Made by a program: the position numbers and the translations under genes. 64,000 nucleotides of DNA from a virus (Duplodnaviria; Caudoviricetes), in IMG/VR virus record IMGVR_UViG_3300010356_000998, positions 44,743 through 108,742 of that record, one strand, 5' to 3'. The notes below the pieces were generated by a model that searched no databases, was not told the DNA's origin, and saw nothing but the letters and a program-made list of their open reading frames with translations. Of the stretch, positions 3,774-19,302 are shown piece by piece (the stretch's first letter is position 1; each line of letters begins with the position of its first letter).

Positions 3774-4011
3774 TGTTTTTTATTACTCCAATAACGATCG
3801 CACGTTTGTGAAGTGGCAACTTAATATGTTGCGTTTCATTATTATCATTAAATCTTTTTACATTGACTAACGTAACATGATGTTTCATTGCAGGAATTCC
3901 TACATTTTCTTCCCAAAATACAAGAGGTAGATCTTTTAAATCTACCCCTTGATTTTTAATATCTGTCAGTAATTTAAGTAATTCTTCAGCTGTAACCATA
4001 GTTATCCACAT
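3766..4011 (-). CDS. hypothetical protein
   Basis: 81 aa ORF overlapping the RNR end and the helicase start. Confidence 0.55.
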   Translation of the reverse strand: MWITMVTAEELLKLLTDIKNQGVDLKDLPLVFWEENVGIPAMKHHVTLVNVKRFNDNNETQHIKLPLHKRAIVIGVIKNID

Positions 4012-4659
4012 TTAGATGATCCACATTCTTTACATACAGCACACCCTTCTTCAAATACAACCGATTTAGATCCACAGTCTAAGCATGATACTGTACTGTT
4101 TGTTCCATCAGGAATATATGCTTTAAGTGTTCTTGCTATAGCTTTTGTAAATGAATGTAACTCACCATCGGTTTTTTGTAATTGCTCAACAATAAAGCGT
4201 ATTTCTGCGCCATGTCGTAAAGCAGTTGAAATAAGTCTGGTAATAGCTTCTTGTTCATCAGTCATCATATAAGCTAATTGATGATATTTACTATTATCAA
4301 TTATTACGTTATATTTTCCTTTACTTTTTTTAGAAATAATACCTTTACTATAACCTTCTAATATAAGTTCTGGTACAGCAAATACTTCGTAAGGCTTGTT
4401 ATCTAATAAACCAACAATAACTGTAAAACCATTACCCTTTACTTTTAAGTGTTTAATATCACATTCTAAATCAATAGGTCTTTTAGGTGCGTTTCTTTGT
4501 TCAAAAGTATTATTTTTAGTAGTATCTGTTACTAAAACACCTGTCCTACTACCATCTCTATATACAGTAACTCCTTTAAGATTTGCATCAAAAGCAGTCA
4601 TATATATAATATCTACTTCTTCAGTAGAAATTTCATTTGGTAGATTAATTGTACTACTT
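4002..4659 (-). CDS. nrdJ: class II (B12-dependent) ribonucleotide reductase, exon 3
   Basis: After splicing reads (HS)ISSTINLP...KGVTVYRDGSR; C-terminal CxxC...CxxCGSSKCG zinc-ribbon tail typical of NrdJ. Confidence 0.9.
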
Positions 4660-4735
4660 CATATTTGTCTCATATTTCTATGAGTATGGACTATATCATA
4701 TTCCTTAATAAAGGAACTCGGACGCTGATACGGTA

Positions 4736-5566
4736 TTACTCATCACGCTTGATGAACCCGTTAGTCTCTGCACCTTCACTACAAGATCGTGTAGTGCTTG
4801 GCTCAATGTTAGCATGATTATTTGCTATTTCTCTGCATAGTTGTAAAAAGTCACTATTAGTCATATTGTTTTTCATTGTATTAACTCTTTTTGTGACCCA
4901 CTGGACATTATCTTTAACATACCCTTTATCGGAATTTATTCTATCTAAAGAACACGTGTGCTTTACTCTATCTTCTTTATTATTAAATTTTGTATTCATT
5001 AATAATTCTCTTTGTGTATAAGCACATTTACCATTTTGATTATTCCACAATTCTTCCAAATATTCTGGTGTAAGATCAAATTCAAAACCTCTTAATTTAG
5101 CGTTTCTCTCAATAACTTTAAAATAAGTTAATGAAAGATTATTAGTTAACATTGTATTTCTTTTAGGTTTTTTTAAATTAGTATTAAAACAGTTATTACA
5201 ATAAGAAAGTCCTTCCCCTTTACATTTTCTAGTTAATGTGGTATGACCTGTTCTGTAAATATGGCCACAATCACATTGTACTTTATAAATAGTATTTCCT
5301 TTTTGAAGACCTTCACATTTCAATACTGTTAAATTTTGTACTTTGAATCCGTCAAAATAAGTTTTTTTGTCTTTCCATCGCAATTTTCCAGAACACGAAC
5401 GACATGATTTTGAAAACCCGTTTCGATTAATATAATGTTTTCCAAAAATATATTCTTTATCACAAGTACATTTTAATACAAAATGATCTCTACCATTTTC
5501 TTTAAATGGTTCTGATACAACTGTCCAGTTGTTTACTTTACTTCCAATTTCTAAATTTCTTTGCAT
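4736..5566 (-). CDS. intron-encoded HNH homing endonuclease
   Basis: CAY...SLDRINSDKGYVKDNVQWVTKRVNTMK HNH-type motif; two N-terminal Cys-rich repeats; C-terminus runs through the Q and R elements of the intron. Confidence 0.88.
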   Translation of the reverse strand: MQRNLEIGSKVNNWTVVSEPFKENGRDHFVLKCTCDKEYIFGKHYINRNGFSKSCRSCSGKLRWKDKKTYFDGFKVQNLTVLKCEGLQKGNTIYKVQCDCGHIYRTGHTTLTRKCKGEGLSYCNNCFNTNLKKPKRNTMLTNNLSLTYFKVIERNAKLRGFEFDLTPEYLEELWNNQNGKCAYTQRELLMNTKFNNKEDRVKHTCSLDRINSDKGYVKDNVQWVTKRVNTMKNNMTNSDFLQLCREIANNHANIEPSTTRSCSEGAETNGFIKRDE

Positions 5567-5587
5567 ATTTTATGTATTTTTATTACA

Positions 5588-5595
5588 CAAAGATA
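5588..5595 (-). promoter_or_regulatory. Bacteroidota -7 promoter element (TAnnTTTG) inside intron 2
   Basis: TATCTTTG about 21 nt upstream of the HNH start codon. Confidence 0.55.
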
Positions 5596-5698
5596 ATTAA
5601 AAATTGATTACTTCAACAGATAACTTACATTTAATTTTAGCCTTCTTTGAATTCATCCGATTTTCGATACACATTACTGTGTAAAGGCACAAGTTTTT

Positions 5699-6665
5699 AT
5701 GCTGTGAGTAGTATATTTTTGAATAATAGATTGAATAAATACTCTATTTTGCCAGTTAATATCATTAGCTATTGAACCATACCAAGGAGACATTTTAAAA
5801 CGTGCTTCTAATTCAGACTTTGGCATCATTTCTATAGAATACGATAATGGATCTGGAGCAGTTTTATTAATTTGAATTTGAAGCCAATCTTTAAATTTAG
5901 GATGAAGTACAGGATATTCCATCCAGTTATCTCCATTTTGATCTGTAAAATCTACTCTAACACCTGTTTCACCCGGATTAACTTTTTTACGACGCATGTA
6001 ATATGGTGCAAATAAAGGTTCTAATCCAGAAGTTGTTTGTGTTAAAATACTTACAGAACCAGTTGGAGCTACTGTAGACCATGATACATTACGACGTCCC
6101 CATTTTATCATTTTTAAAACTTTAAAATAAAAGTTTTCTACTAAAAATTGATAAAATTCATTACGTCCACTAATAATATCACCATCTATTTTAAATTCAC
6201 TTTCAGCATCCCAATCTTTAAATGAACCCCTTAATATAGATAAATCAATACTACAATCTAGTTCTCCTGACATTTTAGTTTGCATCACTCTTTCAATAGT
6301 TTCCATAGCTTCTTTAGAATCATATTTTAATCCTAAAGCTGCTAACATATCACCTAAAGCAGTGAAACCACTACCCGTTCTTCTAGAACTTTCAGCAATA
6401 TATCTTATATTTTGCCAAAGTTCTAATTCAGTACGTTTAACTGAATCATTTTCAGGATCTTGATTGATTTTATCGATAATTCTATCAATGTGTTCTAATT
6501 CAAGATCAATTAAATTATCAGCTAATCGTTGTTGTTCATACGCCATTTTATAAAGACTTTCGTAATCTATTTGAGCATCTTTAGTAAATGGGTTCTTTAC
6601 AAAGGAATAAAAATTAAGTGCTAATAAACGACAAGCATCATAAGCACTCATGAAAATTTCTCCAC
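5699..6665 (-). CDS. nrdJ: class II ribonucleotide reductase, exon 2
   Basis: (C)GEIFMSAYDACRL, RRTGSG, RRNVSWSTVAPTGSVS, TSGLEP motifs. Confidence 0.92.
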
Positions 6666-6673
6666 CTTTTTAT

Positions 6674-7405
6674 CTACACTTTATTAATCATGTTTTTAAA
6701 TTCATTATAATAATCTTTTTCTGTCCACAATTCATTCTTTTTAATTTTTTTAATGTTAGTACCATTATAATAAAAAATACCTTCTTGTGCAGGATACGAA
6801 CAAATACACCTTATTGAAGAATTGTTAATACGACTTTTAAATTCTTCAACTGTAATTAATTTAGGAAAGGTATCAATTGCAGTTTTTCCATAGTAATTAT
6901 TCAAAAAACAATGATTAACATTTACTTTTTCAATATCTAACATTAAATTATGACAAAATAAAAATACTTGTAAAGAATCTTCGTTTTTAAATAAATCTTT
7001 TTCTATTAATTCTAAAAATAAATTGTATACATCAAAATATGAATCATCAGAGTTATCATTAGTATGTTTAGGACTTACAAAATAACCTTCATAAGCAAAT
7101 CTAATAAACATACCTAATAAAGTTAATTCAATAATTTTTGAATCGTTTTTTACATGTACTTCTATTCTTTCACAATCTTTATTATCAATAATTTCAGTTA
7201 TACAATCTATGAAATTAGATTTAATAATATTTAAATATTTCATAAATTTATCATAATTTTCTATTTTAACATATTCTATTATAATTGCTACAGGATCTGC
7301 AGAAGGAACAGTATAATCATGAGCAAACGAATGAAAACAAGCTTCGTTGGTATGTGTGTTAATTTCGCCTTTTACTTTTTTAATAAAACTTGAATTGTAT
7401 GACAT
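6674..7405 (-). CDS. intron-encoded hypothetical protein in the P9 loop, no endonuclease motif seen
   Basis: 243 aa from ATG 7405 (alternative start 7456 overlaps the S element); no HNH, GIY-YIG or LAGLIDADG motif recognised. Confidence 0.75.
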   Translation of the reverse strand: MSYNSSFIKKVKGEINTHTNEACFHSFAHDYTVPSADPVAIIIEYVKIENYDKFMKYLNIIKSNFIDCITEIIDNKDCERIEVHVKNDSKIIELTLLGMFIRFAYEGYFVSPKHTNDNSDDSYFDVYNLFLELIEKDLFKNEDSLQVFLFCHNLMLDIEKVNVNHCFLNNYYGKTAIDTFPKLITVEEFKSRINNSSIRCICSYPAQEGIFYYNGTNIKKIKKNELWTEKDYYNEFKNMINKV

Positions 7406-7442
7406 AATAACATGATTTGAGTTATTTGTAGTTTGGACTGTA

Positions 7443-7811
7443 TCATAAACTTGCATTAAGTTTTTCCTTGTCAGTCTCTCGCGGCTTATTGATTAAATTG
7501 TCTATGATTTCTTTTAAGATAGCTTTTTCGTCAATGTTAAAGCTATTAGTTAATGTAAGTATTCTATTTAGTTTATTTAACAATTTATATTCAATCTGTC
7601 CGACGGGATTGACCTCTCCAGGTGTTTCCCCGTTAGCCTTATTCAGACCCTCAATTTTTTGAGATTCGGAATTTTTGTTAAATGGATTATCTTGATATAC
7701 AATATTTTCAAGTTTCGTAAGTCTATCATAAAGTTCTTGTATTTGTTTTTGAAAGAGTTTTTCATTTCTGTCAATTCTTTCAAATTGTTTAATATTAAAT
7801 TGTTGACTCAT
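7443..7811 (-). CDS. ORF overprinting the intron 1 catalytic core (helical/coiled-coil-like)
   Basis: 122 aa open frame spanning the P, Q and R elements and ending in S; coding status unproven. Confidence 0.5.
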   Translation of the reverse strand: MSQQFNIKQFERIDRNEKLFQKQIQELYDRLTKLENIVYQDNPFNKNSESQKIEGLNKANGETPGEVNPVGQIEYKLLNKLNRILTLTNSFNIDEKAILKEIIDNLINKPRETDKEKLNASL

Positions 7812-7864
7812 AATCTATTTAACTTTCCATAAGTATCACTACTTACAGCCGCATGGTATGTTTT

Positions 7865-8744
7865 ACGGATTTGTGGTTACCCCTTTGTATTTTGGATAAA
7901 CTGTATCAGGAGAATAATCCCAGTGTCTATCTACAAATAATATTCCGGGTTCTGCTGTACTATGTGCAGCTTCTATCATCTTATCCCAAAGTTCTCGTGC
8001 TTTTATTTCTTTAGTAATAGATGGATTATCTGAATCGCAAGGCCATCTCAATGTATAATTTGTATTTTGTTTAACAGCTTGCATAAAGTCATCTCTTACC
8101 ATTACTGAAATATTAGCTCCAGTTACTTTAGTTAGATCTTTTTTAATAGTTATAAAATGTTCAACATCAGGATGTCGAACGTCTATGCTTAACATTAAAG
8201 CACCTCTACGGCCATTTTGTGCTACTTCTCTTGTACTATTAGAAAATCTCTCCATAAAACTAACTGCTCCTGTAGAAGTACCAGCAGCATTAGTTACAGG
8301 TGTATTATTTGGTCTCAATGTAGAAATATCAAGACCTACACCACCTCTTCTTTTCATTAACTGAACTAATTGCTCGTCTTTTTGAAGAATACCTCCATAA
8401 GAATCTTCAGGTTGCCCTACCACAAAACAGTTACTTAAAGATCCTATTTTTTTAGAACCTAGCATTGACATTATAGATCCTTGTGGTACAACATACTTAA
8501 AGTGTTTAAACAAATCATAAATACGTTCTTCTGAAAGATATTCTCTTTCTTGTCCATATTTACTTAATTCTGTTCTGTTTTCGGAGTTTTCTTCTTTTTC
8601 TTTGTAATTAGATTCAATTCTAGCAAATTCTTTTGCCATTCTTTTGTGCATGTCATCGGGAGTCGTTTCTCCTTCTTGAGCATACTTTCCTTGCCATACT
8701 GACATGGCTAATTCATCTTGATTAAAGTAATTGGATAATGACAT
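7865..8744 (-). CDS. nrdJ: class II ribonucleotide reductase, exon 1
   Basis: SLSNCFV, RRGGVG, QNGRRGALM, ANISV, EPGILF, TTNP; exons total 880+967+658=2505 nt (834 aa plus stop). Confidence 0.92.
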
Positions 8745-12255: not shown

Positions 12256-12339
12256 GTTAAGAAATTTAAGTAATAAATAAGAAGCTGGGTTTTGTTTTTG
12301 TTAGTAGCGATACAAAACCAGCAATGAAAAAACGCTAGG

Positions 12340-12425
12340 TACTCCGAGCGAGACTCGAACTCGCAAGAAGCTTACGCCTCCAAGGGATTTTAAGTCCCTC
12401 GTGTATACCATTCCACCACCGGAGC
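12340..12425 (-). tRNA. tRNA-Leu(UAA)
   Basis: Cloverleaf; anticodon arm AGGGA CTTAAAA TCCCT; long variable arm; TTCGAGT T-loop. Confidence 0.92.
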
Positions 12426-12490
12426 GAAAAATGTCAGATTAAAACCTATAATTAGGAAACTTCTTCTGACAAAAGTTTTATTTTTTGTAA

Positions 12491-13015
12491 TTAGTTTACA
12501 TTAAAAGCATCCGCTTCTTCTTCCACTTTTGCTGGAGTAAACGCATCTGCAGCTACAGATCCGTTATGAGTGATAAAAGTGTGCCGTGCTTCAGAAGCAG
12601 GCGTCAAAGAAACTTCACGGTAAATTGGAGACCCGTCTTTCAAAAGAACCTCATTAGTTTGAGGATTGATTTTTGGAGTTGGGTTTTTGCGAGCTGGATT
12701 TGGCGTCAAAGATTCGGTAACCTGCAATTGAAACTCAATCCCAGCTTCAGCTTCAATATTTTCAATTGTGGGCCATTCAGCTTGCGGTTTGTTGCTATAA
12801 TCAGCGTCCGTTGTTCCGAAATATTTCATTGCCTGTTCTTCGCTAAAAGAAACTACAGCGACTGCTTTTGTTTCACCCGTGATGCCTTGCGTAATTGAAA
12901 GAAGCGGATTGCTTGAACCTTTGAAAGTTTGTTGCAGCATCACATTTACTTGGTTTTTGTCAGAATTAGCGTTTGGCCAAATGCGACGTACCTGAACTTT
13001 AGAGAATGGTTTCAT
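12491..13015 (-). CDS. putative single-stranded DNA-binding protein (crAss-like)
   Basis: PKINPQTNEVL..DGSPIYR motif and acidic C-terminal tail. Confidence 0.55.
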   Translation of the reverse strand: MKPFSKVQVRRIWPNANSDKNQVNVMLQQTFKGSSNPLLSITQGITGETKAVAVVSFSEEQAMKYFGTTDADYSNKPQAEWPTIENIEAEAGIEFQLQVTESLTPNPARKNPTPKINPQTNEVLLKDGSPIYREVSLTPASEARHTFITHNGSVAADAFTPAKVEEEADAFNVN

Positions 13016-13058
13016 GTGTGAAAAAGTTGAAATTGTTAAGAGTTATATGGACTGTATT

Positions 13059-13436
13059 CTATTCAGAATCTACAAATCCATATTTTTTGAGTTTTTTTGA
13101 ATTTTCATAGGCGAATTCGACAATAGTTTTATTGTCTTCATAGCCTATTACCCGGAACTTTTCTTGTTTCGGTTTAACAGTTATTCGTTTCTCTTTTTTA
13201 GAAAGAGATTTAATAAACTCTTTTTGATACTCAGCTTTAACATCTTCAGAAATATTTTCTTCTGATATTTTACTGATCAGCATTTGCTGTTTCATCAATT
13301 GAGCTGAATTTTCTTGATACTGTTGTTTAGCGATAGCATCATCATGGTTGTTTAAAAATTTACCATTAAATACTTTCCCAACAGGTTTCAGAAAATTATT
13401 TACTATAAATTTATTATCTTTTCTATATATAATCAT
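13059..13436 (-). CDS. hypothetical protein
   Basis: Start moved to ATG 13436 because the track's upstream extension lies inside tRNA-Tyr. Confidence 0.6.
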   Translation of the reverse strand: MIIYRKDNKFIVNNFLKPVGKVFNGKFLNNHDDAIAKQQYQENSAQLMKQQMLISKISEENISEDVKAEYQKEFIKSLSKKEKRITVKPKQEKFRVIGYEDNKTIVEFAYENSKKLKKYGFVDSE

Positions 13437-13450
13437 AAAATATAATTTAG

Positions 13451-13534
13451 TGCCGGTTGATGGATTCGAACCACCCGAACGATTAAGTACCTGAGTTACA
13501 GTCAGACCCGCGACCATTTACGGAATAAACCGGC
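13451..13534 (-). tRNA. tRNA-Tyr(GUA)
   Basis: GCCGGTT/AACCGGC acceptor stem, CTGTAAC anticodon loop, long variable arm. Confidence 0.88.
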
Positions 13535-13585
13535 ATTAAAATCTTACAGTTTTTACAACTATAAGAATTATTAATTTTGATTAAA

Positions 13586-14155
13586 CTATTTATAAATTCC
13601 TTGTGATAGTACAGTAGGGATGTATGTTACGTACATTTTACAAAATTGAGGATATAATTCTAATAATCCTTTTAATGCTTTTTCAGCATCATATTTTGTT
13701 TCATATACGCCATAATGAGTGATCCAGTTACCATCTTGTAATTGACTTACTAAAAAATCTTTTGGTCTATTTTTAGCTGGAGTTTTTAAATATTCAAATC
13801 TAACAGTCCAACAATTACCATAAGACATTTTTCTAACTTTAGTACCAGTTTCAATAGTATCTACAGATAAAATTTGAATAATGTTGTAACAACCGTCAAG
13901 AATTGCATTAATACGCACTTCTTTAGTTTTTTCTACAATATCATCTTGATTTTCATAATAATGTAATACACCTGTATATTTAGGGTGTTTTGTACTACAA
14001 ATATCTGGTTTGTAGTTTTTAGGAGTTGTGATAGATACGGAATACATTGCTGGACTAGGATTTGAACTAGTTTCAACAATAGGTGGACAATATACTTGAC
14101 TGTAAATATGTACAGTCTGAAGTATTGAAATAAGAATAAAAATAATCTTTTTCAT
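13586..14155 (-). CDS. secreted hypothetical protein, SPOR-like C-terminus
   Basis: Signal peptide MKKIIFILISILQ; GVYETKYDAEKALKGL pattern. Confidence 0.5.
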   Translation of the reverse strand: MKKIIFILISILQTVHIYSQVYCPPIVETSSNPSPAMYSVSITTPKNYKPDICSTKHPKYTGVLHYYENQDDIVEKTKEVRINAILDGCYNIIQILSVDTIETGTKVRKMSYGNCWTVRFEYLKTPAKNRPKDFLVSQLQDGNWITHYGVYETKYDAEKALKGLLELYPQFCKMYVTYIPTVLSQGIYK

Positions 14156-14169
14156 TGTTTAATTTTTAG

Positions 14170-14242
14170 TGATCCCGACAGGGGTCGAACCTGTAGCCTA
14201 CAGATTAGAAATCTGTTGCACTATCCTTTGTGCTACGGGACC
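14170..14242 (-). tRNA. tRNA-Arg(UCU)
   Basis: Cloverleaf; anticodon arm ACAGA TTTCTAA TCTGT. Confidence 0.92.
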
Positions 14243-14249
14243 AGGTTAT

Positions 14250-14399
14250 TTAATGTTTACAACTACCGTCACAATCTGCAACAACTTTACATCGTTTTAC
14301 ACAATGCCAAGTTATTTTTAACAATGGTTTACAAATACATGGAAATTGATGTCCATTAATTGTAACCCAACCAGTATCGTCACAAAGTTTACATTTCAT
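14250..14399 (-). CDS. small Cys-rich putative zinc-binding protein (49 aa, not in ORF track)
   Basis: MKCKLCDDTGW...FPCIC...HCVKRC...DCDGSCKH fills the gap between two tRNAs. Confidence 0.6.
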   Translation of the reverse strand: MKCKLCDDTGWVTINGHQFPCICKPLLKITWHCVKRCKVVADCDGSCKH

Positions 14400-14414
14400 A
14401 TAAATTTATTTTAG

Positions 14415-14487
14415 TGGGCCCAGCAGGACTTGAACCTACAACCCTCAAATTATGAGTTTGGCGCTCTACCGATTGAGCTATGGGCCC
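14415..14487 (-). tRNA. tRNA-CAU, probably Ile2 (lysidine-modified)
   Basis: GGGCCCA/TGGGCCC acceptor stem, CTCATAA loop; body resembles bacterial Ile2 more than Met. Confidence 0.8.
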
Positions 14488-14530
14488 GGTGTTTTAATAC
14501 ACACTTTTAATTGTAATATAATATTTTTGA

Positions 14531-14628
14531 TGACACTAGCAGGAATTTAACCTACCACAACCGCAGAAGAACTAGTATTACGTTGGTTCGCCCACATACA
14601 AATGTAGTGTTCAGGAACATGTAGTGTC
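14531..14628 (-). ncRNA. tRNA-like RNA (acceptor stem and T-arm, non-canonical body)
   Basis: GACACTA/TAGTGTC stem plus discriminator A; GTAGG TTAAATT CCTGC T-arm; no normal D or anticodon arm. Confidence 0.55.
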
Positions 14629-14634
14629 GAGTTT

Positions 14635-14904
14635 TTAATTATAGATAGATTGTAATAATCTACCTAAAATGTGTTTGTTTTTTGGATTCCATCCGTTGAT
14701 TACTCTCATGGTGGAATCAACATATAAATTCGATAATCCACGATGTATTACATGTGGCTTACTTGAATTCATAATGTTATCTATTTGTTGAGTATTTAAT
14801 TCAGGTATTTCAAATTGTACATCAGCAAATGATTTATAAGCCTGTGTACAATCTTCATAATCTGAAATAAATAATTGCGGATGCTGTTCTGGTGATATTA
14901 TCAT
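14635..14904 (-). CDS. hypothetical protein
   Basis: 89 aa ORF with ATGA overlap to the upstream gene. Confidence 0.55.
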   Translation of the reverse strand: MIISPEQHPQLFISDYEDCTQAYKSFADVQFEIPELNTQQIDNIMNSSKPHVIHRGLSNLYVDSTMRVINGWNPKNKHILGRLLQSIYN

Positions 14905-15323
14905 GATGTTACATATTTAACAGCGTTAATGTAATCGTTTTTTAAAGGACTACCTGCATAATATTTCTTAATTCTTTTTATTACTTCTGCAGGATATTCT
15001 CCATGTATACCACTACCATTACATATCCATACTTTTCCTTTATAACCGTAAATGGTTCTTTCTTTATAACCCAAATGTCTAGATACTTTAATTTTGGGTA
15101 CATATACAATTTGGTTATAATTATAAATAATAAGACTAACTAAAACTATAAATACTGGAAAAGCAATTAATGTTTTGAAAAATTCTACTTCTATTGGATA
15201 AGTTTTCTTTTCCGAATTTAATAAAGAAATTGCTGACTCTAAATCTAATGCTAAATTATAATTTAAATAATTGTTAATTAAATTTAGCATAATTAAAATC
15301 ATTAAAAGAATTAAAAGTTCCAT
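14901..15323 (-). CDS. membrane hypothetical protein
   Basis: Two hydrophobic segments; start moved to ATG 15323 because the upstream extension lies in a structured RNA. Confidence 0.55.
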   Translation of the reverse strand: MELLILLMILIMLNLINNYLNYNLALDLESAISLLNSEKKTYPIEVEFFKTLIAFPVFIVLVSLIIYNYNQIVYVPKIKVSRHLGYKERTIYGYKGKVWICNGSGIHGEYPAEVIKRIKKYYAGSPLKNDYINAVKYVTS

Positions 15324-15348
15324 AATTAAATATTTAAGAATGATAAAA

Positions 15349-15477
15349 ATCAAAGAAGAAAAATGATAAAACTGTCTTTGTTGCATACGGGGCTCGAACC
15401 CGTAATTCAAAATCCGAAATTTTTGCGATCAACCAATTGATCTAATGCGAAGTAAGTTTTATCTAACTATCTTTGAT
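15349..15477 (-). ncRNA. Y RNA-like (YrlA-type architecture): long terminal helix capped by a tRNA-like domain
   Basis: ATCAAAGA/TCTTTGAT and GATAAAACT/AGTTTTATC helices enclose a D-arm (GATC/GATC), an anticodon-like arm and a T-arm (ACGGG TTCGAGC CCCGT); lies near the TROVE gene. Confidence 0.7.
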
Positions 15478-15554
15478 TGGTGGCGGGTACGGGACTTGAA
15501 CCCGTGATCTCCAGGTTATGAGCCTGGCGAGATACCAACTTCTACCAACCCGCT
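15478..15554 (-). tRNA. tRNA-Met(CAU), initiator-like, CCA encoded
   Basis: A1:C72 mismatch, CTCATAA loop, ACCA 3' end. Confidence 0.85.
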
Positions 15555-15569
15555 ATTTGTTTCTTCAAA

Positions 15570-15749
15570 TCACTTAATAAGTATGATTATCGCTAATACC
15601 ATCAAACTTGATACGACAGCAACCGTTGAAGTTATCCGTTCATATTTAGGGTGTGGTGTATCTTCAAGATACCTGTAAGTTAGGTTAAGTGCAGTTGCAG
15701 TAAAGGCAACTCCGAACAAAAACATCTCTATACAAAGTATCCAATTCAT
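15570..15749 (-). CDS. small membrane protein (two TM segments)
   Basis: Two hydrophobic helices; start moved to ATG 15749. Confidence 0.5.
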   Translation of the reverse strand: MNWILCIEMFLFGVAFTATALNLTYRYLEDTPHPKYERITSTVAVVSSLMVLAIIILIK

Positions 15750-15980
15750 TTCAAAAAGGGAGTCTTGATCCCTATGCACCCGCATTAGAGGAGTTCACTC
15801 GCTGGTTAATTCCAGATGTGCATCTTAACTCCATCTATCAACAGTTTTACGGTCAAGACTCTTTTTTTACCTGGTCGCCTTTCGACTTAGAGGACTTTGC
15901 CCAGAGTTTTATGGTGAGGTGTCTTTCGACAAGGATGCCATCGTTTTAGCAACCCAACTCCCAGGGACTATAACCATCGG

Positions 15981-16104
15981 TGGGGGAGGCTAGAATCGAA
16001 CTAGCGACAGTCAGCTTTGCAGGCTGATACTCTACCGATGAAACTCTTAAATAACTACCTTTCGGAGAAAATTTAAAGAGTTGTTGTAACTGAGTTACTC
16101 CCCC
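15981..16104 (-). tRNA. tRNA with GCA (Cys) anticodon and a 51-nt D-loop insertion
   Basis: GGGGGAG/CTCCCCC acceptor, ACTC/GAGT D-stem, TCAGC CTGCAAA GCTGA anticodon arm, GCTAG TTCGATT CTAGC T-arm; insert at 16037-16087. Confidence 0.8.
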
Positions 16105-16186
16105 ATTAGTTTTAAAACACTATCCCTGCATACGCACATCCGGGATCAGACGTAGACCAACGCCGTATGTTATAGTGTTTTGTATT

Positions 16187-16540
16187 TTAGGCTACTTGAA
16201 AAGTATTTTGTTTCTTAGCACCTCTTGTGCGTCTTCGATAATTGTGATTCATCTTGAGAATATCACACAATTCTCGACACTTGGTAACAAAGAAATCATT
16301 TCGATCTCTTATGGGTAATCCCTCACTGTCAAATTTCCATTGTGGATCAACCATAGCTTTACCGGCCGCTTTTGTACGACCTGTTTTGCGACAAAATTGA
16401 TCTGCTCCATGACAATAAGACATACCAATTCGAAGTTCGTCGTTAACGAAGATGCCGGCAAATGATGCACGGCTTTTGTACAAACGTTTTTTTCCGCGCT
16501 GTTCGGGCGGATTAACGTGAAAAAACATTAGCTTTTCCAT
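16187..16540 (-). CDS. hypothetical phage protein
   Basis: GMSYCHGADQFCRKTGR motif; start moved out of tRNA-Trp. Confidence 0.6.
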   Translation of the reverse strand: MEKLMFFHVNPPEQRGKKRLYKSRASFAGIFVNDELRIGMSYCHGADQFCRKTGRTKAAGKAMVDPQWKFDSEGLPIRDRNDFFVTKCRELCDILKMNHNYRRRTRGAKKQNTFQVA

Positions 16541-16570
16541 AAATTTGTTTTTAAGTGAAAAAATATTTAG

Positions 16571-16643
16571 CGAATGCGGCAGGATTCGAACCTGCAACCT
16601 TTGGTTTTGGAGACCAATACTCTACCAATTGAGCTACGCAAAC
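16571..16643 (-). tRNA. tRNA-Trp(CCA)
   Basis: TTGGT CTCCAAA ACCAA anticodon arm, G73; two U-U mismatches in the acceptor stem. Confidence 0.82.
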
Positions 16644-16732
16644 GTTTTATTTAAGATAGCCGCCCAGGACAAGTAAACTGAATTACGATCGGTGTTCCTG
16701 CTTCCTTCAGCTATACGGCTAACTTAAATTTG

Positions 16733-16807
16733 ACCTGCTAGAGAGGGCTTGAACTCCTCAACTACTTACTTATAAGGCATATACTTTACCAGTTGAACTA
16801 TATCCGC
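16733..16807 (-). pseudogene. degenerate tRNA-like sequence (UAU loop)
   Basis: GCGGATA TAGTTCAACTGGTA...CTTATAA...GTTCAAG pattern with broken stems. Confidence 0.45.
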
Positions 16808-16939
16808 CAATAGAGGTTTATCATCCTTTGATGACTTAATGGTTGTCACTGCCATTTTTCAGGTATTCTTAAGTAACCCTGTTCCATTTTCCTCTATTGA
16901 CGGAACGACTAGACTCGAATTAAATTACGCAAGCGTTTT

Positions 16940-17128
16940 TTAAGATAATTCTTTATATTTTTCAATTATTCTTATATAGAATAGAATACCACATAAAGCA
17001 TATAAGAATTCTTTTTTTGTTAAATTAGTACCATACTCATCAAGTAAATCATCTATTGACATACCTAAATTTACCAACCATTGTGATACATGAATAATTA
17101 ATAAAAATATTATAAAAAATGTTATCAT
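16940..17128 (-). CDS. small membrane protein
   Basis: Hydrophobic ORF from ATG 17128. Confidence 0.5.
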   Translation of the reverse strand: MITFFIIFLLIIHVSQWLVNLGMSIDDLLDEYGTNLTKKEFLYALCGILFYIRIIEKYKELS

Positions 17129-17140
17129 AATCGAAAAGTT

Positions 17141-17207
17141 AACGGGTAAATGGGGAGAGTTATGTTGTGACACCAAAAAGTCGAAGTAACTCTCCCCTAA
17201 CCACGTT
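17141..17207 (-). ncRNA. minimal Y RNA-like module
   Basis: AACG TGGTTA GGGGAGAGT TACTTC GAC..GTC ACAACATA ACTCTCCCC ATTTACC CGTT; same loops as 15349-15477. Confidence 0.65.
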
Positions 17208-17222
17208 TATATTTTAAAGAAT

Positions 17223-17375
17223 TTACTGTTTGCTAGGTGATGCTATTGTTAAACCTGTGCAAAATGATAATAGTAGCATGAAAATATAAAAATATTCATC
17301 ACTACTACACATTGTAACAATAACACCAATTACTGTAATAACAGTAAATAACAAAGCTTTTTGTTTATATGTCAT
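17223..17375 (-). CDS. small two-TM protein coupled to the TROVE gene (50 aa, not in ORF track)
   Basis: ATGA overlap with the TROVE stop; MTYKQKALLFTVITVIGVIV... Confidence 0.5.
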   Translation of the reverse strand: MTYKQKALLFTVITVIGVIVTMCSSDEYFYIFMLLLSFCTGLTIASPSKQ

Positions 17376-19015
17376 ACAAATTCAATTGATTTAACTGTTT
17401 GAATTATTTCATTTGGATTGAATTCCACATGTTTGATTTGTTCAAACACATGATTTCCATATCCATAGATATAATGTACTTTTGGCCCAACTAATTGAGT
17501 TGTGCCGTAGGCTGCTAAATCAACTGAATACACGTAAGGTCTTCCACACTTTTCTATATAATCCTGATATGCTTTGTAAGTATTACCTACATTACATTCA
17601 TGATCAGAGAAAATGAATACACGATCGTACTTTTTAGTAGAAGCGAGTTTCCAAGCTTCTGCTAAATTAGTTGAGCCCATTTCAGATTTAAATCCAGAAG
17701 CAATTGTAAACACATCATCACTGATTTTATAGTTTACATAATTTGCTTTAGACCCAAATCTAATAATATCCGCATTTGTAGCTTTAGCGATAGTAGCTGC
17801 TAACAAACACGCTTTATCACCAGCGTATGATTTGTAAGTAACTGCATTATTTCGATTGCCGTTCTTTACATAACCATTTAGCATCCACATTGAACCAGAC
17901 TGATCAACAATAACAAGAGTATTACCTGTAAGCAATTCAGCGAAGTTTGGAATACTTTGCTTATAACCTACTGTTAATTCTTGTACAATTCTTCTTGATT
18001 CAGGAGAATTGAATTCATTGTTAATTACTTCAATAGCAATGTCGAAATGATATGGCATTATTTTACCTTGTATAACCTTGTTAGGGTCAGATACAAGAGC
18101 ACATAACATATTTACAGTATCTCTTGTCGGATTTGACAAAAGAATACTACGGATATTGCGCAGTGCTGCCATAATACCAAGACGACCTTCTGACAGCAAC
18201 TGATTCCAGTTTTGCTCTTTAGCTTCTTGTAGAAGTTGTTGAGCTTCTTGCTGGTTAATATTACCTTCACGTACAGCACGAGCAATTTCTTGCCCAGCTT
18301 CACTCTGAGCATTCTCCCATGTATGAGCAGGAATGTTATTTCCTCTCATAATATAGTCAAGTGCTGCAACACTATGTGCTTTTTCTAATGATATTTCTGG
18401 TGTTTTCCAAGGATTAGGATGCACCATATTAGCAACATCACGAATTTGTTTCGTGTATTTGCCAAAATTATACAAATCCAATCCTTCAATCGTCATAGCA
18501 AATCCTTTCTTCATGGAAGCAGGCAGGGATTTGTTATTATTCAATTTATAATATGCCATAATTTCAGACATATCGTCAGTTCTGAAAATAACACCGCCTT
18601 TCTTAGTTTTTTTATTCCAAGCAGAATAAAAATACTTTGCCCATGGTTGACCAGAAATGTATGGAGCAATTGTTACTGCAGCTACATGAGATACAGAACG
18701 TAGACCTTCTCCCAAACAGCGAGAATAAACAATACATTGTGCTGTGAAATATGGATTTTCTTTAGCACATTCGATAACAACAGCTTTCAAATTACGAATC
18801 TGTTGAGATTCTGATTTATAATACTGTTGTTCTAGTTTTAGCGTATTAAGCATAGAAAGTAGTTTTAACCACTTATCCATATTATACGCTGGTGAGCCAC
18901 TGATATTAGTAGCTTTTGGTGGTGCTGCTGTTTGTTTCTTTTTATGTGAAACAAATGAAGCAGTTTGATTCTTACCATCCAACTTTTTTTTGAGTTCGGA
19001 GTTAAATTTTGACAT
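17372..19015 (-). CDS. TROVE-domain / vWA RNA-binding protein (Ro60/Rsr-like)
   Basis: N-terminal TNISGSPAY, HTWE, MAALRNIRSI motifs of TROVE; vWA MIDAS VDQSGSM, GSTN, IFSDHE; C-terminal SVDLAAYG. Confidence 0.85.
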   Translation of the reverse strand: MSKFNSELKKKLDGKNQTASFVSHKKKQTAAPPKATNISGSPAYNMDKWLKLLSMLNTLKLEQQYYKSESQQIRNLKAVVIECAKENPYFTAQCIVYSRCLGEGLRSVSHVAAVTIAPYISGQPWAKYFYSAWNKKTKKGGVIFRTDDMSEIMAYYKLNNNKSLPASMKKGFAMTIEGLDLYNFGKYTKQIRDVANMVHPNPWKTPEISLEKAHSVAALDYIMRGNNIPAHTWENAQSEAGQEIARAVREGNINQQEAQQLLQEAKEQNWNQLLSEGRLGIMAALRNIRSILLSNPTRDTVNMLCALVSDPNKVIQGKIMPYHFDIAIEVINNEFNSPESRRIVQELTVGYKQSIPNFAELLTGNTLVIVDQSGSMWMLNGYVKNGNRNNAVTYKSYAGDKACLLAATIAKATNADIIRFGSKANYVNYKISDDVFTIASGFKSEMGSTNLAEAWKLASTKKYDRVFIFSDHECNVGNTYKAYQDYIEKCGRPYVYSVDLAAYGTTQLVGPKVHYIYGYGNHVFEQIKHVEFNPNEIIQTVKSIEFV

Positions 19016-19019
19016 TTTT

Positions 19020-19214
19020 TTAATTTTCAAGATGAACAATTTTTACTACATCATCTGCATAAAAAACTGTTTGATCATCTTCGTTATAAAAATCTGGTTC
19101 TATAGGAATAATTAAGTCTATTGCAAAATTTTTATCATCGTAATAAAATTTAATTATTCCTGTAAACCAATTTTCATTAATAGTTTTAAAAGCAACAATT
19201 GATCCTTTTTGCAT
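19020..19214 (-). CDS. hypothetical protein
   Basis: Short ORF between tRNA-Thr and the TROVE gene. Confidence 0.5.
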   Translation of the reverse strand: MQKGSIVAFKTINENWFTGIIKFYYDDKNFAIDLIIPIEPDFYNEDDQTVFYADDVVKIVHLEN

Positions 19215-19229
19215 AATAATTTGATTTAG

Positions 19230-19302
19230 AGCCACGTAAAGGATTCGAACCTTTGACCTTCTGATTACAAATCAAGCGCTCTACCAACTGAGCTAACGCG
19301 GC
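19230..19302 (-). tRNA. tRNA-Thr(UGU)
   Basis: Cloverleaf with TTTGTAA anticodon loop. Confidence 0.88.

What the first reader, a model, noticed from the sequence alone, without database searches (positions are those of the whole stretch)
6666..7864. Group I intron carrying a non-endonuclease cargo gene in its P9 loop
Seen in sequence: P1, P10, P4, P5, P7, P8 and the terminal G are all present, and splicing restores NPCGE by rejoining the catalytic Cys codon (T|GT). After the S element the layout is AGTCC-AAA-CTACA-[about 750 nt]-TGTAG-8 nt ending in G. This parallels intron 2 (AGTCC-ATA-CTCAT-6 nt-ATGAG-9 nt), so the 243-aa ORF fills loop L9 and its TAG stop is part of P9. Established: phage intron ORFs are nearly always homing endonucleases. 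This one (ACFHSF, FIRFAYEG, CHN, NVNH) is not basic and shows no HNH, GIY-YIG or LAGLIDADG motif. Inference: the intron serves as a protected gene vehicle in an essential site, or the ORF is a new nuclease or maturase family.
Basis: partly seen in the sequence, partly recalled or inferred. Interest (0 to 1): 0.82.

Follow-up and report, generated by a model that had tools for sequence, protein, structure and literature searches.

The report
ORF-laden group I intron in nrdJ
A real self-splicing-type intron splits the active-site cysteine codon of a phage ribonucleotide reductase gene and carries two protein genes that match no known homing endonuclease, and a sister intron in a related phage carries an ordinary metabolic enzyme, so these introns seem to ferry passenger genes.

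Summary
Window 7864..6666 (minus strand, 1199 nt) is a group I intron that splits the Cys codon of NPCGE in nrdJ.

- **Intron structure.** P1, P10, P2 to P9 and the terminal G are all present. Seven homologous introns at the same codon in related phages show compensatory changes in P2 to P9.
- **The L9 gene.** The 243-codon ORF (7405..6674) fills L9, and its TAG lies inside the 3' strand of P9.
A second gene, ORF1 (7811..7443), runs through the ribozyme core.
- **The ORF2 family.** It has 9 clusters among 1.8 billion representatives. It is mildly acidic and evolves about twice as fast as the host exon. Seven of the eight contexts examined are L9 of this same intron; one member is free-standing beside a dnaB-like gene.
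- **Function not assigned.** No sequence library or fold search places it in a known endonuclease family. The LAGLIDADG hints are not significant.
- **Support for the cargo idea.** A paralogous intron in a relative's nrdJ carries an intact class-I glutamine amidotransferase (Peptidase_C26) gene.

My reading is a passenger gene (about 0.45). A new homing endonuclease family (about 0.3) is not excluded. The scan noted this same stretch before, in readings of other windows.

The parts
7865..8744 (-). nrdJ exon 1, ending ...TTNP plus the T of the Cys codon
   Evidence: Pfam Ribonuc_red_lgC E 1.6e-37; sequence
6666..7864 (-). group I intron 1, 1199 nt
   Evidence: exact exon junction; helices and covariation
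7829..7856 (-). internal guide sequence (P10 strand 7856-7853, P1 strand 7852-7849) and P2 hairpin 7846-7829 with GUGA loop
   Evidence: the P2 stem differs in compensatory fashion in five relatives
7443..7811 (-). ORF1, 122 codons, running from after P2 through P3, P4, P5, P6, P7 and P8; its TGA (7445-7443) lies in the S element
   Evidence: the frame stays open in all relatives, including their in-frame L6 and L8 insertions; only synonymous changes in the KINEIIDHLN stretch among L151, L154 and L159
7600..7671 (-). P3 5' strand (7671-7668), extra hairpin 7662-7651, P4/P5/P4' (7632-7604), P6 5' strand (7602-7600)
   Evidence: the P3 assignment is tentative because 35 nt lie between P3 and P4
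7435..7484 (-). P6 3' strand, R element / P7 5' strand, P3 3' strand, P8 hairpin, S element / P7 3' strand
   Evidence: R reads GAGAGACUGACAA and S reads AUGAUACAGUCC, close to the classical group I R and S consensus (own knowledge)
7427..7431 (-). P9 5' strand CTACA
   Evidence: covaries with the 3' strand (CTATA/TATAG in L155, CTCACA/TGTGAG in L161, ATCC/GGAT in L070)
6674..7405 (-). ORF2, 243 codons plus TAG, filling L9; member of an orphan family
6666..6678 (-). P9 3' strand TGTAG (6678-6674, containing the ORF2 stop) and the 8-nt tail ending in the terminal G at 6666
5699..6665 (-). nrdJ exon 2
   Evidence: Pfam Ribonuc_red_lgC; junctions read from sequence
4660..5698 (-). group I intron 2, with an HNH-type endonuclease ORF (5566..4736) that runs into the R element
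   Evidence: PHROG endonuclease and HNH families, E 3e-25; sequence; DNA matches to other phage introns
4002..4659 (-). nrdJ exon 3 (TSCPD domain and C-terminal zinc ribbon)
   Evidence: Pfam TSCPD; junction gives ...HSI-SSTINLP

Best explanation
Window 7864..6666 is a genuine group I intron. It sits in the catalytic Cys codon of nrdJ in a phage of about 108 kb that is distantly crAss/FpV4-like. The intron has been loaded with genes.

- **ORF1** is threaded through the ribozyme core.
- **ORF2** (243 aa) fills loop L9.

ORF2 is a real, conserved protein of a very small, fast-evolving, mildly acidic family with no recognisable nuclease domain.

My best reading is that ORF2 is a passenger (accessory) gene rather than the intron's homing endonuclease. 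The intron's peripheral loops act as harmless landing sites in an essential, highly transcribed gene. The passenger is transcribed with nrdJ, and splicing removes it so that the reductase stays intact.

Because the ORF2 stop lies in P9 and ORF1 covers P3 to P8, translation of these ORFs and folding of the ribozyme should exclude each other on any one RNA molecule.

**Shown:** the intron anatomy, the covariation, the family distribution, the lack of any match to known endonuclease families, and a non-nuclease enzyme gene in a sister intron.

**Inferred:** that the intron splices, that ORF2 is expressed, and that ORF2 is not a nuclease. The confidence of 0.45 refers to the passenger reading. That the intron and ORF2 are real I put at about 0.95.
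For: **The intron is real.**
- Exact junction.
- All helices pair with compensatory changes across seven homologous introns.
- Rfam RF00028 scores 85.6 bits on L179, an ORF-less intron with a very similar P1-P2 whose flanking exons read ...GCNP and, after splicing, CFEI.

**ORF2 is a real protein.**
- A profile search of 1.84 billion representatives finds 9 members, with E from 1e-135 to 4e-5.
- Invariant R102, N162, H165 and Y172; near-invariant E/D106, D143 and N153.
- AF2 model with pLDDT 78 and pTM 0.82.

**ORF2 is not a known endonuclease.** No hit in Pfam, PHROGs, NCBIfam, PADLOC or PDB sequences, and no significant fold match.

**ORF2 is acidic.** The seven intron copies have pI 5.5 to 6.5; the HNH of intron 2 has pI 9.3.

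**Introns of this family carry non-nuclease genes.**
- L070's paralogous nrdJ intron holds an intact Peptidase_C26/GATase ORF (E 2.5e-20) between P9 and the 3' splice site.
- L070's intron at the NPC|GE codon has three unrelated ORFs in the same loops.
- In L151 a true LAGLIDADG_2 gene sits in the same intron beside the ORF2 homologue.
- Of 48 distinct ORFs in nrdJ introns of this clade, at most 11 match a nuclease or intein Pfam family (domains can overlap on one ORF) and one matches GATase.

**A free-standing ORF2 homologue exists.** P0009 lies in tandem with a homologue of another L070 intron ORF, directly upstream of a dnaB-like gene.
Against: - Seven of the eight contexts examined are L9 of this one intron at this one codon. 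That is what a dedicated homing endonuclease or maturase would show.
- The conserved set of polar residues looks like an active site.
- Between the window and L163 the flanks and core are 90 to 99% identical while ORF2 is about 55% identical at nucleotide level, and the break falls exactly at P9. This shows the ORF moves or is exchanged as a unit, as homing endonuclease genes do.
- Free-standing copies between conserved genes are also typical of phage homing endonucleases.
- A weak motif resemblance exists between LLGMFIRFAYEG and the second LAGLIDADG_2 motif.
- No expression or splicing data exist.
Confidence: 0.45

Rival explanations
1. ORF2 is the founding member of a new homing endonuclease family. 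It would cut intronless nrdJ at the NPCGE codon and drive intron homing. The free-standing copy would be a seg/mob-like relative.
For: - Near-exclusive linkage to this intron and site.
- L9 is an ORF-bearing peripheral loop of the kind homing endonuclease genes occupy (PMC3984707, Figure 2).
- Unit-like exchange with a sharp boundary at P9.
- Conserved R, E/D, D, N, N-x-N-H and Y residues.
- The top Foldseek PDB rows are all LAGLIDADG enzymes, though not significant.
- The intron is absent from most nrdJ relatives, and inteins occupy the same Cys in others, so this site attracts mobile elements.
Against: - Acidic pI of 5.5 to 6.5.
- No nuclease domain in four HMM libraries or in PDB sequences.
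- hhalign probability 0.2 to 0.3% against LAGLIDADG_2.
- Foldseek TM only 0.18.
- A bona fide LAGLIDADG_2 gene co-resides with it in L151.
- Sister introns carry plainly non-nuclease genes.
Confidence: 0.3
2. ORF2, alone or with ORF1, is a maturase-like splicing helper. It would be needed because the ribozyme is burdened by long insertions in J3/4, L6 and L9.
For: - ORF1-type and ORF2-type genes co-occur in all seven ORF2-bearing introns.
- The core is interrupted by unusual insertions.
- The family is confined to this intron.
Against: - Acidic proteins are poor RNA binders.
- No RNA-binding or LAGLIDADG-maturase signature was found.
- L070's intron of the same family lacks ORF2.
- The free-standing homologue in L162 has no intron beside it.
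Confidence: 0.08
3. ORF2 is a decaying remnant with no present function.
For: Fast divergence, 28 to 50% identity against 62 to 88% for the adjacent exon.
Against: - It is intact in every lineage seen.
- It has invariant residues and conserved motifs across 23 to 37% identity to the window's copy.
- It folds confidently.
- It is identical in at least five independent assemblies of this phage.
Confidence: 0.07

Closest known systems
Phage group I introns in ribonucleotide reductase genes (T4 nrdB and nrdD, Twort nrdE, SPbeta bnrdE/F)
   Same: A self-splicing-type intron in a conserved catalytic region of an RNR gene of a lytic phage, with an ORF in a peripheral loop and sporadic distribution among relatives. 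The review PMC3984707 names RNR genes as typical targets and cites the Twort nrdE introns.
   Different: Those introns carry HNH, GIY-YIG or LAGLIDADG genes, or no ORF. This one carries two ORFs without any such domain, one of them across the core. The list of examples and their ORF content is from my own knowledge apart from what the review states.
IStrons (group I intron fused to an IS200/605 element)
   Same: A group I ribozyme whose excision makes a block of protein genes harmless to the host gene. The genes are not classical homing endonucleases (PMC4227781).
   Different: No TnpA or TnpB and no IS ends here. ORF2 has no transposase or RuvC-like signature. The placement of IStron genes in the 3' part of the element is from my own knowledge.
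Group I introns whose ORF overlaps core sequences
   Same: ORF1 overlaps P3 to P8. Overlap of intron ORFs with core sequences is described in PMC3984707, Figure 2b.
   Different: Described cases are endonuclease ORFs that extend partly into the core. Here a small non-endonuclease ORF spans nearly the whole core, and this is a family trait of paralogous introns at two nrdJ sites.
Intron- and intein-rich crAss-like and Jug phages
   Same: Related Bacteroidota-type phages with many introns and inteins in core genes (PMC7886860, PMC12880540). Here the nrdJ genes of relatives hold up to five insertions each.
   Different: Those surveys found introns through endonuclease domains or covariance models. 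They did not describe non-endonuclease intron genes such as ORF2 or the GATase.

Membership tests
Group I intron | P1 with U.G at the 5' splice site, formed with an internal guide sequence, plus P10 with the 3' exon | tested here: met
   CCGU with GCGG, and CCAU with GUGG. The same pairing is seen in all relatives, with a covarying P10 (CUAC in L070).
Group I intron | Terminal G before the 3' splice site, and exact restoration of the reading frame | tested here: met
   G at 6666; T|GT gives NPCGE; intronless relatives align with a 3-nt gap.
Group I intron | Conserved core P3-P4-P5-P6-P7-P8 with R and S elements, supported by covariation | tested here: met
   Compensatory changes in P2 to P9 across seven homologous introns. 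P3 is tentative in the window because of an insertion between P3 and P4.
Group I intron | Match to Rfam RF00028 | tested here: inconclusive
   No hit in the window even at E up to 10. The core is broken by long insertions that the model cannot span, and intron 2 is missed as well. An ORF-less intron with a very similar P1-P2 in L179 scores 85.6 bits.
Group I intron | Self-splicing activity | not testable with these tools
   Needs in vitro transcription and splicing, or RNA data.
LAGLIDADG homing endonuclease (for ORF2) | LAGLIDADG motif or motifs detectable by profile | tested here: not met
   No Pfam hit for any of the 9 members at E up to 10. hhalign against LAGLIDADG_2 alignments gives probability 0.2 to 0.3%, with only a 19-residue motif aligned.
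LAGLIDADG homing endonuclease (for ORF2) | alpha-beta-beta-alpha-beta-beta-alpha fold | tested here: inconclusive
   The top Foldseek PDB rows are LAGLIDADG enzymes, but at E 0.06 or worse, TM 0.18 and rmsd 14 A. None are among the best VIA-align rows.
HNH, GIY-YIG, PD-(D/E)XK, EDxHD homing endonucleases (for ORF2) | Family domain detectable by sequence profile | tested here: not met
   No hit in Pfam, PHROGs, NCBIfam, PADLOC or PDB sequences. The HNH ORF of intron 2 is found easily by the same PHROG search.
HNH, GIY-YIG, PD-(D/E)XK, EDxHD homing endonucleases (for ORF2) | Family fold | tested here: inconclusive
   Not listed among the fold matches. The C-terminal half was barely tested, and no further model could be made.
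IStron | IS200/605 or IS607 transposase and TnpB genes within the intron | tested here: not met
   No such domains in ORF1 or ORF2.

The most novel reading that the evidence does not exclude
In this clade of environmental Bacteroidota-type phages, group I introns work as gene cassettes. Their loops (J3/4, L5, L6, L8, L9 and the 3' tail) take up, exchange and carry accessory genes: the ORF2 family, a GATase/Peptidase_C26 enzyme, small Cys-rich proteins and others. These genes sit inside an essential early gene. ORFs overprinted on the ribozyme core would couple translation to splicing. On this reading ORF2 is a non-nuclease accessory protein whose only link to the intron is that the intron makes its insertion harmless.
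Probability: 0.4. Interest if true: 0.8.

Novelty: new variant of a known kind. Interest (0 to 1): 0.62.

Why it matters
Phage group I introns are usually seen as ribozyme plus homing endonuclease. This intron lineage instead has several conserved genes that match no known endonuclease family. One sister intron carries an ordinary metabolic-type enzyme. A protein frame also runs through the catalytic RNA core.

- If ORF2 is a passenger, self-splicing introns are a so far overlooked route for phages to add and swap accessory genes inside essential genes.
- If ORF2 is a nuclease, it founds a new homing endonuclease family with an unusual acidic protein, of interest for genome-editing enzymology.

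Either outcome can be tested with a simple cleavage assay and a splicing assay. Surveys that find introns through endonuclease domains or Rfam models would miss introns like this one.

Tried and rejected
- **Rfam on the window.** The gathering threshold and E up to 10, on 3.5 kb and on 0.5 kb, gave no group I hit for either intron. I put this down to the long insertions, not to absence of the ribozyme.
- **blastn and tblastn against phage records.** The intron and ORF2 gave only chance-level DNA matches and no protein match.
- **ESM Atlas.** Only unnamed clusters, with scores at chance level.
- **First AF2 model from two sequences.** pLDDT 44, unusable.
- **LAGLIDADG hypothesis.** It was raised by the motif LLGMFIRFAYEG and by the Foldseek ranking. 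hhalign against 4-sequence and 116-sequence LAGLIDADG_2 alignments gave probability 0.2 to 0.3%, and VIA-align did not rank LAGLIDADG chains. I kept it only as a lead.
- **hhalign of the ORF2 family against two other intron ORFs.** The LAGLIDADG ORF of the cr108_1 intron and the L9 ORF of L070 showed no relation.
- **ORF1-ORF2 complex prediction.** No answer, score 0.00. This is not evidence either way.
- **Search for versions of this intron with an empty L9.** Scanning for the S element followed within 8 to 38 nt by exon 2 gave 44 metagenome and 3 viral matches. None had a matching 5' splice-site signature or a P9-like tail. The pair that looked most like a deletion variant, L290 and L294, read as DNA-ligase coding sequence on inspection. 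I treat all of them as chance matches, and no empty form was found.
- **A loose P1-P2 pattern scan.** Most matches were chance. It did turn up the ORF-less introns of L179 and L238.
- **Alternative genetic code.** No suppressor tRNA among the 8 tRNAs. Reading through the TAG of ORF2 adds only about 12 codons.

Full report
**Setting.** The finding lies on the minus strand in a class II ribonucleotide reductase gene (nrdJ) that is split into three exons: 8744..7865, 6665..5699 and 4659..4002. Pfam finds Ribonuc_red_lgC in the first two pieces and TSCPD in the third. The window belongs to a tailed phage of about 108 kb that was assembled almost identically in at least five metagenomes. Its major head protein is only 25% identical to that of Flavobacterium phage FpV4, with crAss-like records further down the list. 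Its nrdJ resembles that of crAss-like phages at about 66% nucleotide identity.

**The junction.** Exon 1 ends AATCCGT and exon 2 begins GTGGAGAA, so splicing gives T|GT and the peptide TTNPCGEIFM. I fetched 67 loci with nrdJ relatives from viral contigs. In most of them the two exon matches are separated by exactly three bases, the Cys codon. Others carry inteins at this same Cys (L009, L018, L031, L043, L069). So the site attracts mobile elements, and the intron has the patchy distribution expected of one.

**The ribozyme.** Rfam finds no group I intron in the window, even at E up to 10. It also misses intron 2, which has DNA matches to other phage introns. The evidence for intron 1 is comparative. 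Homologous introns at the same codon occur in L163/L001, L151, L154, L155, L159, L161 (partial) and L070.
- Every helix I assigned in the window pairs in every homologue.
- Compensatory changes are frequent. P2 reads AAGU/ACUU, ACAG/CUGU, ACAU/AUGU, AUAG/CUAU or AUAC/GUAU.
- P3 reads UUCC/GGAA, CUCC/GGAG, CUCU/AGAG or CUUU/AAAG.
- P4 reads CGGG/CCCG or CGGU/ACCG. P5 reads ACCU/AGGU or UCCA/UGGA.
- P6 reads CGG/CCG, GGG/CCC or CACGU/ACGUG.
- The extra P7 pair is G-C, or A-U in L154. P8 has six different stems.
- P9 reads CUACA/UGUAG, CUAUA/UAUAG, CUCACA/UGUGAG or AUCC/GGAU.
- R (GAGAGACUGACAA) and S (AUGAUACAGUCC) are close to the classical consensus (own knowledge).
- Rfam RF00028 scores 85.6 bits on L179, an ORF-less intron with a very similar P1-P2 whose flanking exons read ...GCNP and, after splicing, CFEI. 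I take that gene to be a more distant reductase from this motif only; I did not check it.

One oddity remains. All homologues except L155 have an insertion between the P3 5' strand and P4. It is 35 nt in the window and holds whole ORFs in L151, L154, L159 and L070. My P3 assignment rests on covariation and on the compact L155 form, and it is tentative for the window.

**The ORF in L9.** After S comes AAA, then CTACA (7431-7427), then the ORF, then TGTAG (6678-6674), then 8 nt ending in G at 6666. The ORF begins at 7405, not at the upstream ATG at 7456, because the N-terminus M-x-x-S/T-S-S-F/Y is shared by relatives whose ORFs start after P9. In all homologues the 3' end of the ORF overlaps the P9 3' strand. 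The stop lies inside that strand in the window, L154 and L155, and one to three codons past it in the others.

A second ORF of 122 codons (7811..7443) starts just after P2 and runs through P3, P4, P5, L6, P7 and P8. It stops at the TGA inside the S element.
- In AT-rich DNA, a stop-free run of this length has a chance of roughly 1 in 10,000 by my own rough estimate.
- The frame stays open in every homologue, through independent in-frame insertions of about 100 to 140 nt in L6 and L8.
- In L151, L154 and L159 the stretch KINEIIDHLN differs only by three synonymous changes.
- Paralogous introns at nrdJ residue 180 also have a core-threaded ORF of 172 to 256 aa, some with Cys-rich tails encoded in L8.

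Much of the ORF1 conservation (NGETPEV..GQ, KP.ETDKEKP) is simply the translated ribozyme core. Its function as a protein is therefore likely but not proven.

**What ORF2 is.**
- *Sequence searches.* No Pfam, PHROG, NCBIfam, PADLOC or PDB-sequence match for any family member. No tblastn hit in 50,697 phage records.
- *Family size.* The word-index search found one homologue. A profile search of 1.84 billion representatives found nine clusters in all, 128 to 260 aa long, none fused to another domain.
- *Conserved residues.* Invariant R102, N162, H165 and Y172. Near-invariant E/D106, G107, D143 and N153.
- *Structure.* With nine sequences AlphaFold gave pLDDT 78 and pTM 0.82. The model has an N-terminal alpha/beta domain (residues 4 to 106) and a mostly helical C-terminal half.
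- *The LAGLIDADG lead.* The motif LLGMFIRFAYEG aligns with the second LAGLIDADG_2 motif, but hhalign gives probability 0.2 to 0.3%. I treat this as a lead, not a finding.

**Distribution and evolution.**
- Of the eight genomic contexts I could read, seven are L9 of this same intron.
- The eighth (P0009 in L162) is free-standing, directly upstream of a dnaB-like gene. It lies in tandem with a homologue of a 98-aa ORF that in L070 sits inside an nrdJ intron.
- ORF2 copies are 28 to 50% identical, while the adjacent 200 exon residues are 62 to 88% identical.
- Between the window and L163 the exons and the intron from P1 to the P9 5' strand are 90 to 99% identical in nucleotides. ORF2 drops to about 55%, and the break falls exactly at P9. 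L163's ORF2 is closer to L151's than to the window's. So the ORF is exchanged as a unit.
- The intron copies have pI 5.5 to 6.5. The HNH protein of intron 2 has pI 9.3.

**Do introns of this family carry non-nuclease genes?** Yes, in at least one clear case. In L070 a paralogous intron at nrdJ residue 180 has the same R, S, P3, P4 and P8 pattern. It carries a 98-aa ORF, a 138-aa ORF and, between P9 and the 3' splice site, an intact 268-aa ORF. That ORF matches Peptidase_C26 (E 2.5e-20) and class-I GATase (E 1.1e-12), and the GICRGAQ, HHQ and GHPE motifs are present.
- L070's intron at the NPC|GE codon has three further ORFs in J3/4, L5 and L9, none related to ORF2.
- L151 has a real LAGLIDADG_2 gene in the same intron next to its ORF2 homologue.
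- Of 48 distinct ORFs of at least 70 aa inside non-intein nrdJ insertions of this clade, at most 11 match a nuclease or intein Pfam family, with some domains probably on the same ORF. One matches GATase. The rest match nothing apart from one DUF6501 hit.

**Weighing.** The tight link to one intron, the unit-like exchange, the free-standing copy and the conserved polar residues fit a new homing endonuclease. The acidic charge, the lack of any nuclease signature, the co-resident LAGLIDADG gene in L151, and above all the plainly non-nuclease passenger in a sister intron fit the passenger reading. The link to one intron can also be explained by vertical inheritance within one small phage clade. 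My estimates are passenger 0.45, new endonuclease 0.30, maturase-like helper 0.08 and functionless remnant 0.07.

**Mechanism proposed.** The genes are transcribed as part of the nrdJ pre-mRNA, and splicing removes them and restores the reductase. ORF1 covers P3 to P8 and the ORF2 stop lies in P9, so a translating ribosome would unfold the ribozyme. Each transcript would therefore be either spliced or translated. This step is inferred. [quoted passage not shown]

**Relation to the literature.** Introns and inteins are known to be dense in some crAss-like and Jug phages (PMC7886860, PMC12880540). Those surveys located introns by endonuclease domains or covariance models and did not describe non-endonuclease intron genes. 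ORFs that overlap the core are known for endonuclease genes (PMC3984707, Figure 2b). IStrons are the known case of a group I ribozyme carrying other genes (PMC4227781), but nothing here resembles an IS element. I therefore class this as a new variant of a known kind.

Noticed in passing
window 7443-7811 (minus strand): ORF1, 122 codons, runs through the ribozyme core from after P2 to the S element, with its stop inside S. The frame is kept open in all homologous introns, including their in-frame L6 and L8 insertions. Paralogous introns at nrdJ residue 180 also have a core-threaded ORF.
   Followed up: partly
L070:6463-8209 (intron at nrdJ residue about 180), ORF 7391-8197: A paralogous group I intron carries an intact Peptidase_C26 / class-I glutamine amidotransferase gene between P9 and the 3' splice site, preceded by a run of about 20 A. 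This is a clear non-endonuclease intron passenger.
   Followed up: partly
L162:1-1207: The only free-standing ORF2 homologue (P0009) lies in tandem with a homologue of a 98-aa ORF from an L070 intron. Both sit directly upstream of a dnaB-like helicase gene, with no intron structure around them.
   Followed up: partly
window 7633-7667 (minus strand); also L151, L154, L159, L070: An insertion lies between the P3 5' strand and P4, where group I introns normally have a short J3/4. It starts with a small covarying hairpin (7662-7651) and holds whole ORFs in relatives. Only L155 has the compact form. How the core tolerates this is unexplained.
   Followed up: partly
window 4660-5698 (minus strand): Intron 2 of nrdJ carries an HNH-type endonuclease ORF (5566..4736, pI 9.3) whose 3' end runs into the R element. 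The splice restores ...HSI-SSTINLP.
   Followed up: partly
L009, L018-L021, L031, L032, L043, L069: Relatives carry inteins of about 430 to 1130 nt at the very same catalytic Cys of nrdJ where the window has the intron. Several relatives have up to five insertions in nrdJ.
   Followed up: partly
L154:4199-4603, L161:1-142, L154:2451-3218, L159:1339-1923: Core-threaded ORFs of several relatives end in Cys-rich tails (CxxC-type) that are encoded in the L8 insertion. These are possible small zinc-binding modules.
   Followed up: no
window 12338-19302 (minus strand): A cluster of 8 tRNA genes (Leu, Tyr, Arg x2, Met x2, Trp, Thr) with no suppressor tRNA.
   Followed up: no
L158 (uncultured phage cr108_1, MT774385.1 74898-75824): The protein annotated as hypothetical between two nrdJ fragments of this crAss-like phage is a LAGLIDADG_2 endonuclease (E 3e-7). 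Its intron is inserted one codon downstream, at NPCG|E.
   Followed up: partly
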